Virus record (IMG/VR): IMGVR_UViG_3300029288_000079
Span: 32,001 to 96,000 of that record
Reading direction: 5' to 3' (one strand)
DNA: 64,000 nt
Source: a virus
Taxonomy: Duplodnaviria; Caudoviricetes
Part shown: in pieces, positions 2,939 to 7,404 of the stretch
Position numbering within the stretch: the first letter of the stretch is position 1
How the letters are laid out: every line of letters starts with the position of its first letter
Notes under the pieces: generated by a model
Seen by the model: only the letters and a program-made list of their open reading frames with translations
Told to the model about the DNA's origin: nothing
The model's database searches: none
Position numbers and translations under genes: made by a program

Positions 2939-3094
2939 ATTAAATTCCTTTTCATTATTCTATCTCCAAAATAAAAATAAAAACTGCAAATCGTTACCAT
3001 GTTTTATAGATTCAACCAACTCTGAGTATCCATTATCATTTTCCCTTCTATTTATTACTCAATTCAGCGTTCTATGTACTTACATGTTATGTCG

Positions 3095-3508
3095 TCATTG
3101 CTCATTTTTAGATACGCTTTGTGGCACTTCTTTTTCCGCTAAGAATTTTTGGATTATCTCTTCAACCTTTTCACCTACTGGATCACTCGTGTACCAACGA
3201 ATAAGTTTCCCAATCTTAGAGGCATAGTTCACCTCGTTTGTCGTGCTTTTCCCGATGTAATCATTTCGGTTCACAACAAACACTTCATCACAATCATCAA
3301 TCTTGCGGAAGTGTAATTCATCCATCGCGGTTGCAACGCTTTCGTGTTCGGCGATATGGTCAGGGATTCCCCTTGCATACCATATCGGCAATAAATGAAG
3401 TCCATTTGTTATTTTGTGTTCATCGCGCTCTATGAACCATGCACAAACAGCCATCACATCCACAAATCTTGAAGAACCACACATTACAACTCGTTTTGGT
3501 TTTTCCAT
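3095..3508 (-). CDS. Nucleoside 2-deoxyribosyltransferase-like (DUF4406-type) protein
   Basis: CGSSRF...LHFRKIDDCDEVFVVN...YIGKSTTNEVNYA. Start at 3508 has a GAGGA SD. Confidence 0.65.
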   Translation of the reverse strand: MEKPKRVVMCGSSRFVDVMAVCAWFIERDEHKITNGLHLLPIWYARGIPDHIAEHESVATAMDELHFRKIDDCDEVFVVNRNDYIGKSTTNEVNYASKIGKLIRWYTSDPVGEKVEEIIQKFLAEKEVPQSVSKNEQ

Positions 3509-3552
3509 ATTTTCCTCAGTGCCACAAAGCGTTAAAAGTAGATGCAATGCGA

Positions 3553-3952
3553 ACATAACCATGTGGCCAAGCTGACCGAATCAGCCAAATGCAAAATTCA
3601 TTGAGTTAAACGCCCTTCAAAATCAGTCTGCAAATGTCTTGTACTAATTCCTCTTCTGCCATTCTCAATTCTTTTATTTTTCTTTTATCCATTCTTGTTA
3701 ATGCCCTTAAGGCAGAGTGAAGCAATTCATGTATTAAAAAGTCCTTCGGTTCTTTTGTCTTTGTTCCCCATCCATAAATTATTGATCGTTTATTCCTCGG
3801 ATGAATAGAACATTGCGCTCCATACTTACTTGCACATTGGTATGTTATTTTCCAGTCTTGTAATATTCTCAGTTGGCTCTTTAGGGCGTTTAACTTTTTC
3901 TTACTCATTTTGAACGTTTCTCCTTCGGCAGTTTAGCAACCATCCGTTACGC
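3553..3952 (+). repeat. attC-like site A with a gene-containing loop
   Basis: Left arm ACATAAC-CATGTGGCCAAGCTGACCGAA (from 3553); right arm TTCGGCAGTTTAGCAACCATCC-GTTACGC (to 3952). Confidence 0.6.
3606..3908 (-). CDS. Hypothetical protein with HExxH motif
   Basis: LIHELLH...EE resembles a minimal zincin; GGAG SD; lies inside attC-like site A. Confidence 0.6.
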   Translation of the reverse strand: MSKKKLNALKSQLRILQDWKITYQCASKYGAQCSIHPRNKRSIIYGWGTKTKEPKDFLIHELLHSALRALTRMDKRKIKELRMAEEELVQDICRLILKGV

Positions 3953-4113
3953 GGTCGCGGTAAAGCGTGCAATTGCTTCAATTTTTTTACACACTTTCTT
4001 TTCTCAACTGTCCAGAATTTTATACAACTGTTAGCTAAGGCAATCTCTCTCCGTGCGGTTTTGATAGTTTTTTTTCTCTTTTCTATCTTATTCATCTTAA
4101 ATTCCTTTCGCAA
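3901..4113 (-). CDS. Small basic hypothetical protein
   Basis: Likely start MNKIEK after AAGGA; C-terminus is read through the right arm of site A. Confidence 0.5.
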   Translation of the reverse strand: MRKEFKMNKIEKRKKTIKTARREIALANSCIKFWTVEKRKCVKKLKQLHALPRPRNGWLLNCRRRNVQNE

Positions 4114-4203
4114 TTACATGCTCACTAAAATGTTAATTGATTTATTTGTAAACATTTTCCTGCTTAACGAAAAAGTTCTCGTTTTGTCCATTGTCATAAT
4201 TTC

Positions 4204-4521
4204 CTATAAACTATTTTTATCTTCATCCATTAATGTGCCGGTAGAATCAATACGCTGGATAGGTATTATTGTGCCGAATATTTTGCTAATTTCTTCTTTG
4301 GATGAATAATAGTAATCACTTATTGCCATATTCCCGAATAGACTATTATATACCCAGCGATATTTCATTACTTTCTTTTTAGGCATAGTAAACGTCTCTT
4401 CTTTTTGACCGACGAATTGCCATAAGGAAGGGCCTCCTTCTACATGCGCTCTATCATCTTCTGAATTAGGTGTTACATAATGGTAAAGCCCATTTCTATG
4501 TAAATATGCATTTACTAACAT
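4204..4521 (-). CDS. Hypothetical protein
   Basis: AAGGAG SD; overlaps upstream gene. Confidence 0.6.
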   Translation of the reverse strand: MLVNAYLHRNGLYHYVTPNSEDDRAHVEGGPSLWQFVGQKEETFTMPKKKVMKYRWVYNSLFGNMAISDYYYSSKEEISKIFGTIIPIQRIDSTGTLMDEDKNSL

Positions 4522-4733
4522 GGTATTTCTCCTTTAATTGGTTCATTAATTCTTGCCAAAAGCCATAGCAATCCACTAATTATCAACATTGCTCCACAAC
4601 TCGACCAATGATCTATTTTCATTTCTACACTTATGTTGCCGAAAGACCATATCAGCGTTTCTATGGCTACGGATACACCCATAAATATCATTCCATATAA
4701 GAAAGAAATTATTCTGTGTTCGTTTAGTTCCAT
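4515..4733 (-). CDS. Small two-TM membrane protein
   Basis: Two hydrophobic segments; ATG at 4733 just inside the R'' of site C. Confidence 0.55.
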   Translation of the reverse strand: MELNEHRIISFLYGMIFMGVSVAIETLIWSFGNISVEMKIDHWSSCGAMLIISGLLWLLARINEPIKGEIPC

Positions 4734-4754
4734 AATGTTCTCTGTTCGCAAAAA

Positions 4755-4839
4755 ATATAACCAAAGTTTCAAGTTGACCGAATCAACTTGCGTTTTTTAT
4801 TCTAACCTTTCAGCACGGCAGCTTAACCATCCGTTAGAC
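4755..4839 (+). repeat. attC-like site C (85 bp, canonical size)
   Basis: R'' ATATAAC, L'' region TTTCAAGTTGACCG, L' region CGGCAGCTTAAC, R' GTTAGAC. Extra C and A in the left arm match the extrahelical-base pattern. Confidence 0.78.
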
Positions 4840-4847
4840 ATATGTGC

Positions 4848-5195
4848 TCACAGTCCCGCTATAACGCATTCGTCACACACCCGCGTTTTGCCTGTATCAC
4901 TTCTGTCTTGTTGATTTACTACATATCCATAACTCGATCCACAGACATCACAAGTATGTGCCGGACAAAACGCTATGTGCGGTTGTCCTAATTCGTATTC
5001 CACTCCACAGTCAGGACACTTCGTTAATCGCGCACTGCCTAACACGTTGCTCAAGCTGACTGGCGTCAGCTCGTTTTTGTTAAGTATTTTTTCTATTAGG
5101 TCGGCAGCGTCGTAATATCCATTTCGGTTTGCTAAATCCATTGTGCTTCGTAATTGTTCGGTTAAACTTCTTTGGTCATTCATGTCTTGTCGCAC
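4848..5195 (-). CDS. Zinc-finger-containing hypothetical protein
   Basis: CPDC..H..C..H.CDVC..CDEC; AAGGA SD; N-terminus lies within the loop of site D. Confidence 0.65.
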   Translation of the reverse strand: MRQDMNDQRSLTEQLRSTMDLANRNGYYDAADLIEKILNKNELTPVSLSNVLGSARLTKCPDCGVEYELGQPHIAFCPAHTCDVCGSSYGYVVNQQDRSDTGKTRVCDECVIAGL

Positions 5196-5242
5196 TTTAT
5201 TTCCTTTCTGTTTACGCCAGCAGCTTCGCTTAATCGTTGGGT
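5037..5242 (+). repeat. attC-like site D (206 bp)
   Basis: GCCTAAC-ACGTTGCTCAAGCTGACTGGCG pairs with CGCCAGCAGCTTCGCTTAATC-GTTGGGT, leaving a bulged A. Confidence 0.72.
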
Positions 5243-5250
5243 GGACGCGA

Positions 5251-5409
5251 TCAATAATCTTCTTTTATGCGTTCATATCGTTCATCCAGTTCCAGAAGGA
5301 CTATAAGTTTATCAATTATTTCTTTCCTTCCAGTTCGTTTACCATTTTCAAACATTGAAAGTTCTCGTTTTGTCCATTGTTTTACTTTTATAGGCTTTAA
5401 TTTTCCCAT
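5251..5409 (-). CDS. Small hypothetical protein
   Basis: GGAGG SD (overlapping R'' of site E) precedes ATG at 5409. Confidence 0.55.
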   Translation of the reverse strand: MGKLKPIKVKQWTKRELSMFENGKRTGRKEIIDKLIVLLELDERYERIKEDY

Positions 5410-5415
5410 CTTTTC

Positions 5416-5545
5416 CTCCAACCAGCAACTCAAGCTGACGTGATGAGCGTTTTACGTTCTTCCGTTTCAGTTGTAATTCATTATCATATCGGTATTCATT
5501 CATGCTTCAAGTCTTTTCCATGTGCAGTTTATGTTGCCGTTAGGC
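5416..5545 (+). repeat. attC-like site E (130 bp)
   Basis: CTCCAAC-CAGCAACTCAAGCTGACG ... TGCAGTTTATGTTGCC-GTTAGGC. Confidence 0.7.
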
Positions 5546-5731
5546 TGGTGGCACTTCTCTGTACAAGCTCGCAATCAATAACCTATCCTCGTGTTTCGGG
5601 TTTTCTTTTTCGTCATTAACCACTGCAAACCAAGTGCCTGCAAATTTTTCCAGTCGCACAAATTTAACAGGGCAAGTACCATACCATAGCACTGTACCTT
5701 TTTTCATAAATCTTGCGTCCTTAAATTTCAT
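5540..5731 (-). CDS. Small hypothetical protein
   Basis: AAGGAG SD before ATG at 5731; TAA stop is inside the R' box of site E. Confidence 0.6.
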   Translation of the reverse strand: MKFKDARFMKKGTVLWYGTCPVKFVRLEKFAGTWFAVVNDEKENPKHEDRLLIASLYREVPPA

Positions 5732-5762
5732 CGCTGTTCTCCTTTTTATAAAATGTGCCACC

Positions 5763-5795
5763 GCCTAATACGGCTTCAACTTTGACAGAATTAGC
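5763..5795 (+). repeat. Degenerate attC left arm (site F)
   Basis: GCCTAAT-ACGGCTTCAACTTTGACAGAA; AAC mutated to AAT, no convincing right arm. Confidence 0.45.
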
Positions 5796-5880
5796 TTTGG
5801 TACGTTTGTCCATATCTTTTGATTTTTTCATTGATTCGCTCCCCTCCTGTTAGTAGTTTGCATATTGTATCGGCTTATCA

Positions 5881-7404
5881 TCATCCTAGTTCCTTTGCTA
5901 ATTCTTCTAATGTGCATTTGCTTACGTCACGTTCTATTAACTTAAACTCAGGCTCCGACTTATAAATCTCCAATCTCCTTTTAGAATGCTTTGAAATATA
6001 CCTAACATCATGATAAAAGTCAATAATTCCACAAGATATTTTTCCTTCTGCAGCCGTGATAGATCTCATACGCTGTAATGTAGAAATACTACTCAATCCT
6101 CCGGCAGCATTTATAGTAAAATCTAAACTTAACAAATCTATACCCTCCTCAAACAATGTTGATATACAGCACATAATCTTTTTTTCACGTATTTTTTGAA
6201 TAACATCAACTCTTCTATCAGTCTTATCTTTTCCAGTCAAAACTACAGAATTTTTTATGGCCTTGTGCAAAACATTGGCATGATAAATTGTATCAGTTTG
6301 TATAATCACAGACTTATTATTATTATTCAAAGACATAACCAGTAAATTAATTAAACCTATAAAAAATTTATTTTCAACTACTGCTTGTTTATAAACTGTA
6401 GGATATGCTGCATCAATATCAAATTTTGGTAATTTATAAAAATATATTGTAGGACGTAATAAAAAACCCTCTCTAATAAGCTCTGAATATGTTACAGTAT
6501 GAATTATATCACCAATAGCTTCTTCTACCAACATATCTTCATCTTTATCTGCAAAAGGAGTAGCTGTTAGACCTATCTTTAATTCCGCATTAGTACATTT
6601 ACTCAGTACAAATTTACTCGTATTTGATAAACTATGATGAGCTTCGTCATAAAACACTAATTTAGCTTTTTTAAGTAATATTTGAATTAATATTTTTTGT
6701 TTCTTTTCTATTGAAAGCTCTTTATCTAGATCTTTTTCTTTTATTTCCTTACTATAAGCCGAAAAAGCACTTTGAACAGTAACTATAGTTATATCCTGTA
6801 TATCTACTTTACCATCCCCTACAATGCCTACAGTTATATCAGGAAGAAACTGATGAACTCTATCCAAAGTCTGATAAGCAAGATCTAAACTTCTACAGAA
6901 AAATACCACAGGAAATTTACGTTCCGAGTCCACTATCGCAATAAACATCAAAGTTTTACCTGACCTCATAGGTGCTTTTAAAATTCCAAAACGTTTTTCT
7001 ACACAACTTTGAGCTGCCAATAATTGATATGGTCTCAATTCATAAGTATTAGATTTTTGTACAAACTGCTCGGAACGAGGTTTATCAATAACATTAACCT
7101 CACAGCCATGTTTCTGCAATATATTAATAACTCTATTTAAAAGACCTACACGAAATGTTTTTGTTTTGGCATGATAGAGATGGTACTGACCATCCCATTG
7201 ATGATTTTGAAATTTTGGTGAGAAAAAGTAATTTTCAGCGTAAAAAGAAAGTTCATTATATATTATTGCTTCTAATTCTGTAGGAAGTTCTGTAAGAAAC
7301 CTGCACCACACAGAATAGAATTGTATATCTACTATAATATTAAACTGTTGATCTATGTCTTCAGAAATCTCTTCATGAAATATATCAACATCTATTTTTA
7401 CCAT
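5881..7404 (-). CDS. SF2 DNA helicase (UvsW-like)
   Basis: LRPYQ, APMRSGKT, DEAH, GLTATP, EEGID motifs. Confidence 0.88.
   Translation of the reverse strand: MVKIDVDIFHEEISEDIDQQFNIIVDIQFYSVWCRFLTELPTELEAIIYNELSFYAENYFFSPKFQNHQWDGQYHLYHAKTKTFRVGLLNRVINILQKHGCEVNVIDKPRSEQFVQKSNTYELRPYQLLAAQSCVEKRFGILKAPMRSGKTLMFIAIVDSERKFPVVFFCRSLDLAYQTLDRVHQFLPDITVGIVGDGKVDIQDITIVTVQSAFSAYSKEIKEKDLDKELSIEKKQKILIQILLKKAKLVFYDEAHHSLSNTSKFVLSKCTNAELKIGLTATPFADKDEDMLVEEAIGDIIHTVTYSELIREGFLLRPTIYFYKLPKFDIDAAYPTVYKQAVVENKFFIGLINLLVMSLNNNNKSVIIQTDTIYHANVLHKAIKNSVVLTGKDKTDRRVDVIQKIREKKIMCCISTLFEEGIDLLSLDFTINAAGGLSSISTLQRMRSITAAEGKISCGIIDFYHDVRYISKHSKRRLEIYKSEPEFKLIERDVSKCTLEELAKELG

What the first reader, a model, noticed from the sequence alone, without database searches (positions are those of the whole stretch)
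3086..5860. Integron-like attC cassette array inside a phage, with all genes inverted and no integrase in the window
Seen: the small accessory genes are separated by related imperfect palindromes of the form YAAC-N~8-CAAGYTGAC ... GCAGYTT-N~9-GTTRRRY (sites 3553-3952, 4755-4839, 5037-5242, 5416-5545, and a decayed arm at 5763). The left arms carry the extra C and A. Established: this is the R''-L''-L'-R' layout and extrahelical-base signature of integron attC sites, which makes + the top strand; cassette ORFs normally run on that strand. Here every ORF runs on the opposite strand, co-directional with phage transcription. Inference: the phage keeps a shufflable accessory-gene array that uses a host or distant IntI, or its own recombinase, with polarity adapted to phage transcription. 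The cargo looks phage-like rather than like bacterial cassettes.
Basis: partly seen in the sequence, partly recalled or inferred. Interest (0 to 1): 0.92.

Follow-up and report, generated by a model that had tools for sequence, protein, structure and literature searches.

The report
Mirror-image integron cassettes in a phage
A strain-variable 2.9-kb island of a large landfill/groundwater phage holds four well-supported integron-type attC hairpin sites but no integrase, and all its genes run backwards compared with bacterial integrons; it is a partly decayed member of a phage-borne cassette family, and attC clusters in phages were already reported in 2023.

Summary
A covariance model that I built from 16 class-1 integron attC sites gives its best full-length hits in the 64-kb window at 5037-5242, 4755-4839 and 5416-5545, all on the + strand. 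Arm profiles built from other phages recover all four left arms and three right arms as the top hits in the whole 181.7-kb genome. The genome has no tyrosine or serine recombinase, so this is a CALIN, an attC cluster lacking an integrase. The same attC family, with stronger scores, forms arrays in at least eight other phage contigs. In 26 of 26 such sites the genes lie opposite the attC top strand. The same motif in bacterial genomes has genes on the same strand in 109 of 130 sites. The closest bacterial attC sites are in Bacteroidota/Ignavibacteriales genomes that encode IntI. In this phage the sites are weaker, and two have gene-bearing loops. Strain differences (whole island absent, gene-level swaps) do not map to G|TT. 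Active shuffling here is therefore not shown. CALINs in phages are published (Qi et al. 2023); I found no paper on the mirrored polarity. This scan has noted it before on other DNA.

The parts
2959..5890 (.). Strain-variable accessory island that holds the whole array
   Evidence: In two metagenome runs from different studies, contigs of a roughly 92%-identical, high-depth strain join 5891 to 2958 with only 6 letters between. Relative L009 has about 150 bp and one small ORF in its place.
3013..3092 (+). Site E: an 80-nt unit bounded by ATTCAAC and GTTATGT. It is a variant or degenerate att-like unit at the top-strand left end of the array.
   Evidence: It is 89% identical to L122 1887-1970, and the similarity starts at AAC and stops just after GTTATGYCG. 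It has raised depth from other genomes in the same samples. The attC model did not detect it.
3095..3508 (-). g11, 137 aa, a phage-type hypothetical protein with weak leads to nucleoside deoxyribosyltransferase-like/DUF4406 families
   Evidence: ORF preceded by the ribosome-binding site GAGGAAAA. Its nearest ESM clusters are viral. No Pfam or PHROG hit. A perfect 15-nt inverted repeat flanks it at 3114-3128 / 3518-3532.
3553..3579 (+). Site A left arm (R''-L'')
   Evidence: Left-arm profile from other phages, 13.7 bits, E 0.016 over the whole genome. It is 81% identical, together with the adjacent 5' UTR, to L047 7158-7239.
3606..3908 (-). g10, 100 aa, lying inside the loop of site A
   Evidence: ORF with ribosome-binding site GAAGGAGAAA. 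A perfect 13-nt inverted repeat at 3604-3616 / 3883-3895 encloses it. No family hit.
3926..3952 (+). Site A right arm (L'-R', GTTACGC)
   Evidence: Best right-arm profile hit in the genome, 11.9 bits. The minimum-energy fold of 3553-3952 closes with the R and L stems, but this is not significant against shuffles.
3901..4095 (-). g9, 64 aa; its 3' end reads through the right arm of site A
4119..4171 (-). 53-nt promoter-like element (TTTACA-17-TTTAGT) shared between phages
   Evidence: 98% identical to L047 6846-6898 and L056 583-635 in otherwise unrelated phages. Contigs of other genomes in the same samples carry it. The promoter reading is my inference from the sequence.
4204..4521 (-). g7, 105 aa, a gene-level mobile module
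   Evidence: Only 3 homologues were found. The segment 4547-4202 alone is 85.5% identical to L193/L194, which have no attC context.
4515..4733 (-). g6, 72 aa, a small membrane protein
   Evidence: weak holin-like hit, E 0.077
4755..4839 (+). Site B, an 85-bp attC-type site with no gene inside
   Evidence: Model R1 gives 18.9 bits, E 0.02, full length. It is 88% identical to the 86-bp site of L047. A local hairpin plus T-run at 4770-4790 competes with the attC fold.
4848..5195 (-). g5, 115 aa, with a zinc-ribbon-like C-terminal half; it starts inside site C and reads out through that site's left arm
5037..5242 (+). Site C, a 206-bp attC-type site
   Evidence: Model R1 gives 20.8 bits, E 0.006, full length. 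Both arms are top profile hits. The minimum-energy fold contains the bulged L stem.
5251..5409 (-). g4, 52 aa; a 31-nt piece of its 5' end is repeated at 4172-4202
   Evidence: (repeat D3, 90% identity)
5416..5545 (+). Site D, a 130-bp attC-type site of the family's typical length
   Evidence: Model R1 gives 9.2 bits, E 5.8, which is weak and within background. Its left arm scores 16.7 bits, E 0.0017. Its right arm is below the profile threshold.
5540..5731 (-). g2, 63 aa; its TAA stop codon lies inside the R' box of site D
5721..5831 (-). g1, 36 aa
5758..5895 (+). Possible decayed site F (138 nt; GCCTAAT ... GTT at 5889-5891, at the island border)
   Evidence: Read by eye only. No profile or model hit. 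Speculative.

Best explanation
The island 2959-5890 is a CALIN, a cluster of integron-type attC recombination sites with no integrase, carried by a large tailed phage that has no recombinase of its own. The sites belong to a phage-borne attC family, mostly about 130 bp with some of 86 bp. In this family the recombinogenic bottom strand is the coding strand. In the direction of transcription a cassette therefore reads attC, then ORF. The ribosome-binding site and start codon often lie inside the attC loop, and the stop codon sometimes lies in the next R' box. Inferred: cassettes of this pool were inserted and exchanged by the integron integrase of a host of the Bacteroidota/Ignavibacteriota kind acting in trans, since these phages encode none. 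Inferred: once a pool has one polarity, attC x attC insertion keeps it, because only cassettes of matching polarity are co-transcribed. In this phage the array is old and partly decayed: three of four L boxes carry a wobble, sites A and C have expanded loops that hold genes, and D scores poorly. The turnover visible between strains comes from other recombination, namely loss or gain of the whole island and swaps at gene borders.
For: Shown:
- Model R1, built from 16 real attC sites, hits sites C, B and D full-length on the + strand.
- Arm profiles made only from other phages rank the 4 left arms and 3 right arms first in the 181.7-kb genome.
- The bulged bases are C and A (G and T on the bottom strand) in all four of our sites and in 17 of 17 family sites.
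- The same family forms arrays in phage genomes G001-G004 and in L122, L148, L201 and L208, scoring up to 39.6 bits.
- The L helix is 97.5% paired, 10 of 13 pairs show compensatory changes, and 0 of 500 shuffles reach the observed value.
- Single-strand folds of the sense strand of 130-nt members give the attC shape with two bulges on the 3' arm.
- Top-strand G-T wobbles (12) and bottom-strand ones (11) are balanced, so there is no RNA-type strand bias.
- Polarity: 26 of 26 phage-type sites have ORFs opposite the top strand, against 109 of 130 on the same strand in bacteria.
- The closest bacterial arms are in Bacteroidota/Ignavibacteriales MAGs. Four of five of these encode IntI above the TIGR02249 cut-off, against 0 of 14 controls.
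- None of the five phage genomes has PF00589 or PF00239.
- Cassette content differs between G001 and G002, which are 97-98% identical in their flanks.
- One cassette is shared by G001 and G004 with different neighbours, and the similarity ends at CCCTAACGG, the R' crossover.
- CALINs in virulent phages and their recombination by IntI1 are published (PMC9892861).
Against: - Scores in this phage are modest (9-21 bits, against 30-40 in the family), and D is not separable from background with R1 alone.
- Sites A (400 bp) and C (206 bp) exceed the known attC size range.
- The bottom strands of B and D do not fold into the attC form as minimum-energy structures; B prefers a local hairpin.
- Mapped differences are not at G|TT. 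G001 and G002 diverge just after the L' box. L122 and L068 share only the L''-R'' arm plus the cassette body. The L195 and L193 breakpoints are at 4547, a gene border. The island's left border has no G|TT.
- No excised or reordered form of this array was seen in four metagenome runs.
- My model is a stand-in for IntegronFinder's, and its E-values are rough.
Confidence: 0.7

Rival explanations
1. The arms act mainly as portable short homologies. They may descend from attC sites, but what they do in phages is give relaxed homologous recombination, during co-infection, a place to swap gene modules. This would resemble the boundary sequences of lambdoid phages or the PeSL modules of T4-type phages. 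IntI would play no current part.
For: Breakpoints fall at the inner edges of the arms, not at G|TT: G001 against G002 after the L' box, and L122 against L068 at the L''-R'' arm. Short elements (site B, the 53-nt element, site E) are shared at 88-98% identity between otherwise unrelated phages in the same samples. None of the phage genomes has a site-specific recombinase.
Against: Homology alone needs neither complementarity between the two arms of one site, nor compensatory changes, nor invariant bulged bases at fixed positions, nor a constant length of about 130 nt. One cassette border does fall at the R' crossover.
Confidence: 0.18
2. The hairpins work at the RNA or expression level. In the polycistronic mRNA each site would fold around the ribosome-binding site and start codon of the next gene, giving processing, stability or translational control. 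On the antisense strand some sites would act as terminators. The likeness to attC would be inherited or convergent.
For: Ribosome-binding sites and start codons lie inside the loops (L047). Terminator-like hairpins with T-runs lie on the + strand at 4770-4790 and 5054-5071, 5 found against 1.4 expected. Perfect inverted repeats enclose whole genes g10 and g11.
Against: There is no excess of G-U wobble on the transcribed strand (12 against 11). The box sequences and bulge identities match what IntI recognises and score up to 39.6 bits with a model made only from class-1 attC sites. The same motif in bacteria marks classical integron arrays. No RNA run holds the region, so expression could not be examined.
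Confidence: 0.1
3. The resemblance is chance among phage intergenic palindromes.
For: The individual scores of B, C and D are modest, and CAAGYTGAC with one mismatch is not enriched in the window (18 found, 16.8 expected).
Against: All exact copies cluster within 1.9 kb on one strand with fixed spacing. Profiles from unrelated phages pick these arms out as the top hits of 363 kb searched.
Confidence: 0.02

Closest known systems
CALINs (clusters of attC sites lacking an integron integrase) in bacteriophage genomes: Qi, Rajabal, Ghaly, Tetu and Gillings 2023, PMC9892861
   Same: attC-type sites in series on one strand within a phage, with no IntI. The family's cargo includes DNA methyltransferases, as that paper reports. 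The proposed dependence on a host IntI is the same.
   Different: Here, and in the whole family, genes are antisense to the attC top strand, whereas the paper describes TJE1 and PH101 as having the typical bacterial layout. Start codons lie inside the sites. Family sites score far higher with my model than the published Polaribacter phage P12002L, which gave no hit at E<=1. Nothing was tested experimentally here.
attC sites of sedentary chromosomal integrons, here of Bacteroidota/Ignavibacteriales MAGs (loci L112, L127, L113, L186)
   Same: The R''/L''/L'/R' boxes, the bulges and a size of about 110-130 nt are the same. The phage arm profiles score these bacterial sites highest, and the genomes encode IntI.
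   Different: The bacterial arrays have ORFs on the attC top strand and lie in genomes with an integron integrase. The phage arrays are mirrored and have no integrase.
Class 1 integron attC sites (aadA1, dfrB and others) used to build model R1
   Same: The box sequences are nearly the same: TAAC-N8-CAAGCCGAC...GCGGCTTAAC...GTTAGAT against TAAC-N8-CAAGCTGAC...GCAGCTTAAC...GTTAGAC. The extra C and A sit at the same positions.
   Different: The loops are much longer (85-400 bp against 57-114 bp in my set) and hold coding sequence. There is no attI, Pc or intI.
Modular shuffling elements of phages (T4-type PeSL cassettes, lambdoid boundary sequences, morons); named from my own knowledge, not tested here
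   Same: Short conserved sequences lie between small accessory genes in a hyperplastic region, and there is gene-level mosaicism between strains.
   Different: Those elements are promoter/terminator stems or plain homologies, not bulged R/L-box hairpins that match an attC model.

Membership tests
Integron attC site | R'' (RYYYAAC) and R' (GTTRRRY) boxes at the two ends, complementary to each other | tested here: met
   R' boxes: GTTAGAC (B), GTTGGGT (C) and GTTAGGC (D) fit; GTTACGC (A) departs at one position. R'' boxes: GCCTAAC (C) fits; ACATAAC (A), ATATAAC (B) and CTCCAAC (D) each depart at one position. AAC and GTT are invariant.
Integron attC site | L''/L' boxes that pair, with two extrahelical bases on the L'' side of the top strand (G and T on the bottom strand) | tested here: met
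   The extra C and A align to the model's two bulge positions in all four sites, and in 17 of 17 family sites. Three of our four L boxes contain one G-T wobble (read).
Integron attC site | Recognised by an attC covariance model (the IntegronFinder criterion) | tested here: inconclusive
   My own model, built from 16 class-1 attC sites, gives C 20.8 bits, B 18.9, D 9.2 and does not find A. Family members in other phages reach 39.6 bits. IntegronFinder's own model was not available.
Integron attC site | Length about 57-141 bp | tested here: inconclusive
   B (85 bp) and D (130 bp) fit. C (206 bp) and A (400 bp) do not.
Integron attC site | The bottom strand folds into the R/L-paired hairpin | tested here: inconclusive
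   Met for 130-nt family members in other phages. In this phage, the minimum-energy folds of A and C contain the closing stems but are not significant, and those of B and D do not.
Integron attC site | Recombined by an integron integrase at G|TT | not testable with these tools
   Needs an attC x attI or attC x attC assay. The comparative evidence is mixed.
CALIN (Cury et al. 2016, PMC4889954) | At least two attC sites close together, with no integron integrase nearby | tested here: met
   There are four sites on one strand within 2 kb. The whole genome has no PF00589 match.
Complete integron | intI gene with an adjacent attI and the Pc promoter | tested here: not met
   The 181.7-kb genome has no tyrosine recombinase and no serine recombinase.
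Canonical integron gene cassette | ORF on the attC top strand, with the attC at its 3' end | tested here: not met
   ORFs are on the opposite strand at all 4 sites here and at 26 of 26 family sites. The bacterial control gives 109 of 130 on the same strand.

The most novel reading that the evidence does not exclude
Lytic phages of FCB-group bacteria in landfill and groundwater share their own pool of mirror-image integron cassettes. Each cassette would be an attC that holds the translation start, followed by the ORF, with the recombinogenic bottom strand as the coding (non-template) strand. The phages would exchange these cassettes by hijacking the host's integron integrase during infection. 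This would be a phage counterpart to the bacterial integron banks of anti-phage defence genes, and this island would be one ageing member of it.
Probability: 0.3. Interest if true: 0.85.

Novelty: new variant of a known kind. Interest (0 to 1): 0.62.

Why it matters
Integrons are regarded as bacterial gene-capture devices, and phage-borne attC clusters have been reported only once, from a few weakly scoring sites. This is a strongly scoring attC family that recurs in unrelated phages, is consistently mirrored relative to its genes, and matches the attC type of IntI-bearing candidate hosts. If it is active, phages would use host integrases to trade accessory genes, possibly anti-defence genes. 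It would also give a natural experiment on how bulge polarity sets cassette orientation. For this window the lesson is more modest: it is a decaying array in a hyperplastic island, and its recent changes came from other kinds of recombination.

Tried and rejected
- blastn of the region against INPHARED phages found nothing.
- Rfam at a permissive threshold gave only chance hits.
- blastn of site B against PLSDB plasmids gave only chance hits.
- The scan of viral contigs with the 16-nt left-arm motif returned 55 loci, about the number expected by chance. Only L047 and L056 proved real after model scoring.
- The whole-genome search with R1 through the genome search reported no match at E<=1 in G000, although the direct unfiltered search did. 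I took the unfiltered result and backed it with arm profiles.
- PHROGs and Pfam gave no function for the ten ORFs.
- No RNA holder was listed among the sequencing runs.
- Laid contigs showed no clean single-cassette excision. The joints 3089>5030, 3561>5039 and 4826>4119 have short sides (18-47 nt) and are best read as contigs of other phages that share site E, site B or the 53-nt element.
- I rejected the idea that pairs such as A' with B could be the functional hairpins, because R would then lie inside L, the reverse of an attC.
- I considered a shufflon or invertase reading. I rejected it because there is no invertase, all genes are complete with their own starts, and the arms carry attC-type bulges.
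- The ORF-strand test is unreliable in loci with 60-68% G+C, so I drew no conclusion from those.
Full report
OBSERVATION. The window is bases 32001-96000 of a 181,733-bp IMG/VR virus record. It has about 33% G+C, and essentially all genes are on the - strand. Between 3553 and 5545 there are eight arms that alternate left, right, left, right. The left arms read YAAC-N8-CAAGYTGAC and start at 3553, 4755, 5037 and 5416. The right arms read GCAGYTT-N8-12-GTTRR and end at 3952, 4839, 5242 and 5545. The exact 9-mer occurs four times in the whole genome. All four copies are here and on one strand.

ARE THEY attC SITES? I then took 16 different attC sites from class-1 arrays in six plasmid loci and aligned them (A1). 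From these I built covariance model R1, with the R helix, the L helix and the two bulges specified. Run without filters on both strands of the window, its best hits are:
- 5037-5242, 20.8 bits, E 0.006
- 4755-4839, 18.9 bits, E 0.02
- 5416-5545, 9.2 bits, E 5.8 (fifth; two ~10-11-bit background hits rank above it)

All three are full-length and on the + strand, and background hits score 10-11 bits. Site A spans 400 bp and cannot be found by such a model. Arm-only profiles made from sites of other phages, however, rank the four left arms first in the complete genome (13.7-17.7 bits, next best 8.3). They rank the right arms of A, C and B first as well (10.8-11.9 bits, next best 5.5). The extra C and A of each left arm align to the model's bulge positions. 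On the bottom strand these are the G and T that IntI is known to contact (established knowledge; Bouvier et al. 2009 and Nivina et al. 2016, PMC5027507, not re-read here).

A FAMILY IN OTHER PHAGES. Pattern scans plus R1 found the same kind of site in IMG/VR genomes G001-G004. It also occurs in two contigs binned into MAGs (L122, L148) and in L201 and L208. These sites are mostly 128-135 bp, with some of 86 bp. They score up to 39.6 bits and are spaced about 0.4-1 kb apart. G001-G004 are real tailed phages: they have terminase, a Mu-type portal, thymidylate synthase and dCMP deaminase, and some cassettes are DNA methyltransferases. None of them, nor our genome, has a tyrosine or serine recombinase. 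Across 20 sites the L helix is 97.5% paired, and 10 of 13 pairs show compensatory changes. That alignment was fitted to the model, which favours this result. Sense-strand single-strand folds of 130-nt members give the attC shape with two bulges on the 3' arm. Top-strand and bottom-strand wobbles are equal, 12 against 11. This speaks for a DNA-level structure rather than a single-strand RNA structure.

POLARITY. In 26 of 26 sites of this family the ORFs lie on the strand opposite the attC top strand: 52,305 nt opposite against 8,129 nt on the same strand. As a control, the same asymmetric motif was scanned over one genome per prokaryote species. It gave at least 120 loci, where about 28 were expected by chance on my estimate. 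In these loci the ORFs lie on the same strand at 109 of 130 sites. The inversion is therefore real and specific to the phage family. Read in the direction of transcription, each site starts with RYYYAA|C. The upstream gene's TAA is sometimes the TAA of that box, as for g2 here. The ribosome-binding site and ATG often lie in the loop, and the ORF reads out through L''-R''. Examples are g5 and possibly g3 here, and several genes in L047.

LIKELY SOURCE OF AN INTEGRASE. Among the bacterial loci, the phage arm profiles score highest in Bacteroidota and Ignavibacteriales MAGs. Four of five of those genomes encode an integron integrase above the curated TIGR02249 cut-off (413-459 bits). None of 14 control genomes does.

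THE ISLAND AND ITS VARIATION. The closest IMG/VR relative (L009; helicase 82% identical) has about 150 bp in place of 2964-5877. In landfill and groundwater metagenomes from four studies, a strain about 92% identical and at high depth joins 5891 to 2958 with 6 letters between. The whole array is therefore present or absent as a block. A 97%-identical strain (L195) keeps the stretch from 4547 down to 2748 but has other sequence upstream. g7 alone (4547-4202) occurs at 85.5% identity in contigs without attC sites. These breakpoints lie at a gene border, not at a site. In the stronger family the evidence is mixed:
- G001 and G002 have flanks 97-98% identical but different cassettes.
- One of their breakpoints lies just after an L' box.
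- L122 shares only the L''-R'' arm plus the cassette body with L068.
- A cassette shared by G001 and G004, with different neighbours, ends its similarity exactly at CCCTAACGG, the R' crossover.

ANATOMY OF THIS ARRAY.
- Site B is the 86-bp type, 88% identical to that of L047.
- Site A is the same type with g10 in its loop. Its outer arms and the 5' UTR of g11 match L047 at 81%, and a perfect 13-nt inverted repeat encloses g10.
- A 53-nt promoter-like element (4119-4171) is 98% identical to one in L047 and L056.
- Terminator-like hairpins lie on the antisense strand inside the left arms of B and C.
- Site E (3013-3092) is an 80-nt unit shared at 89% with L122, bounded by AAC and GTTATG.
- A sixth, decayed site may end at the GTT at 5889, on the island border. 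This is by eye only.

MECHANISM. The best reading is a CALIN whose cassettes came from a phage-associated pool exchanged by a host IntI in trans. It is now ageing and is being remodelled mostly by other recombination. The attC identity, the lack of a recombinase, the family, the polarity and the strain variation are shown. The use of IntI, and the idea that polarity is self-reinforcing under attC x attC insertion, are inferred. The rivals are arms acting as portable homology for homologous exchange, and RNA-level roles. Neither explains the compensatory changes, the fixed bulges and the attC-model scores together.

COMPARISON AND NOVELTY. CALINs in phages, and recombination of five of six tested phage attC sites by IntI1, are published (PMC9892861). 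With my model the published Polaribacter phage P12002L gives no hit at E<=1, so this family is a clearer case. Three literature searches found no description of the mirrored polarity. Earlier notes of this scan report the same mirrored layout on other genomes. They are not independent evidence, but my own tests agree with them.

Noticed in passing
window 3114-3128 and 3518-3532: A perfect 15-nt inverted repeat brackets the whole of gene g11, one arm in its 5' UTR and the other in its 3' coding end. By my estimate, about 0.004 such pairs are expected by chance in 3 kb.
   Followed up: no
window 4119-4171; L047 6846-6898; L056 583-635: A 53-nt element reading TTTACA-17-TTTAGT is 98% identical between otherwise unrelated phages. 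In each case it lies about 25 nt upstream of a small gene that precedes an 86-bp attC.
   Followed up: partly
window 4172-4202 and 5358-5388: A 31-nt direct repeat at 90% identity. The copy at 5358-5388 is the 5' coding part of g4. The copy at 4172-4202 is an out-of-frame fragment fused to the 53-nt element, which looks like a recombination scar.
   Followed up: partly
window 6582-6643 (helicase gene 5881-7404): In runs X4 and X5 the abundant island-free strain has 669 other letters in place of 60 bases inside the helicase gene. This may be an inserted element such as an intein or a homing-endonuclease module.
   Followed up: no
L195 1-310: In a 97%-identical strain, the sequence upstream of g7 is replaced by other DNA that ends in a tRNA-like T-arm (GGTTCAATTCC).
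   Followed up: no
L072 13866-13960; L068 6444-6530: The arrays of G001 and G002 end, in the direction of transcription, with an R'-L' half-site and then a terminator-like hairpin with a T-run.
   Followed up: no
L008 4100-5353: A group II intron reverse transcriptase sits inside the aadA2 attC of a Klebsiella plasmid. This is a known kind of insertion into an attC and a useful comparison for the gene-bearing loop of site A.
   Followed up: no
L199, L200, L202, L204-L207, L209, L210: Several IMG/VR 'viral' contigs with 59-68% G+C carry dense classical attC arrays (up to 63 bits, spaced 0.3-0.6 kb apart). They may be chromosomal integron fragments or prophage-borne arrays.
   Followed up: partly
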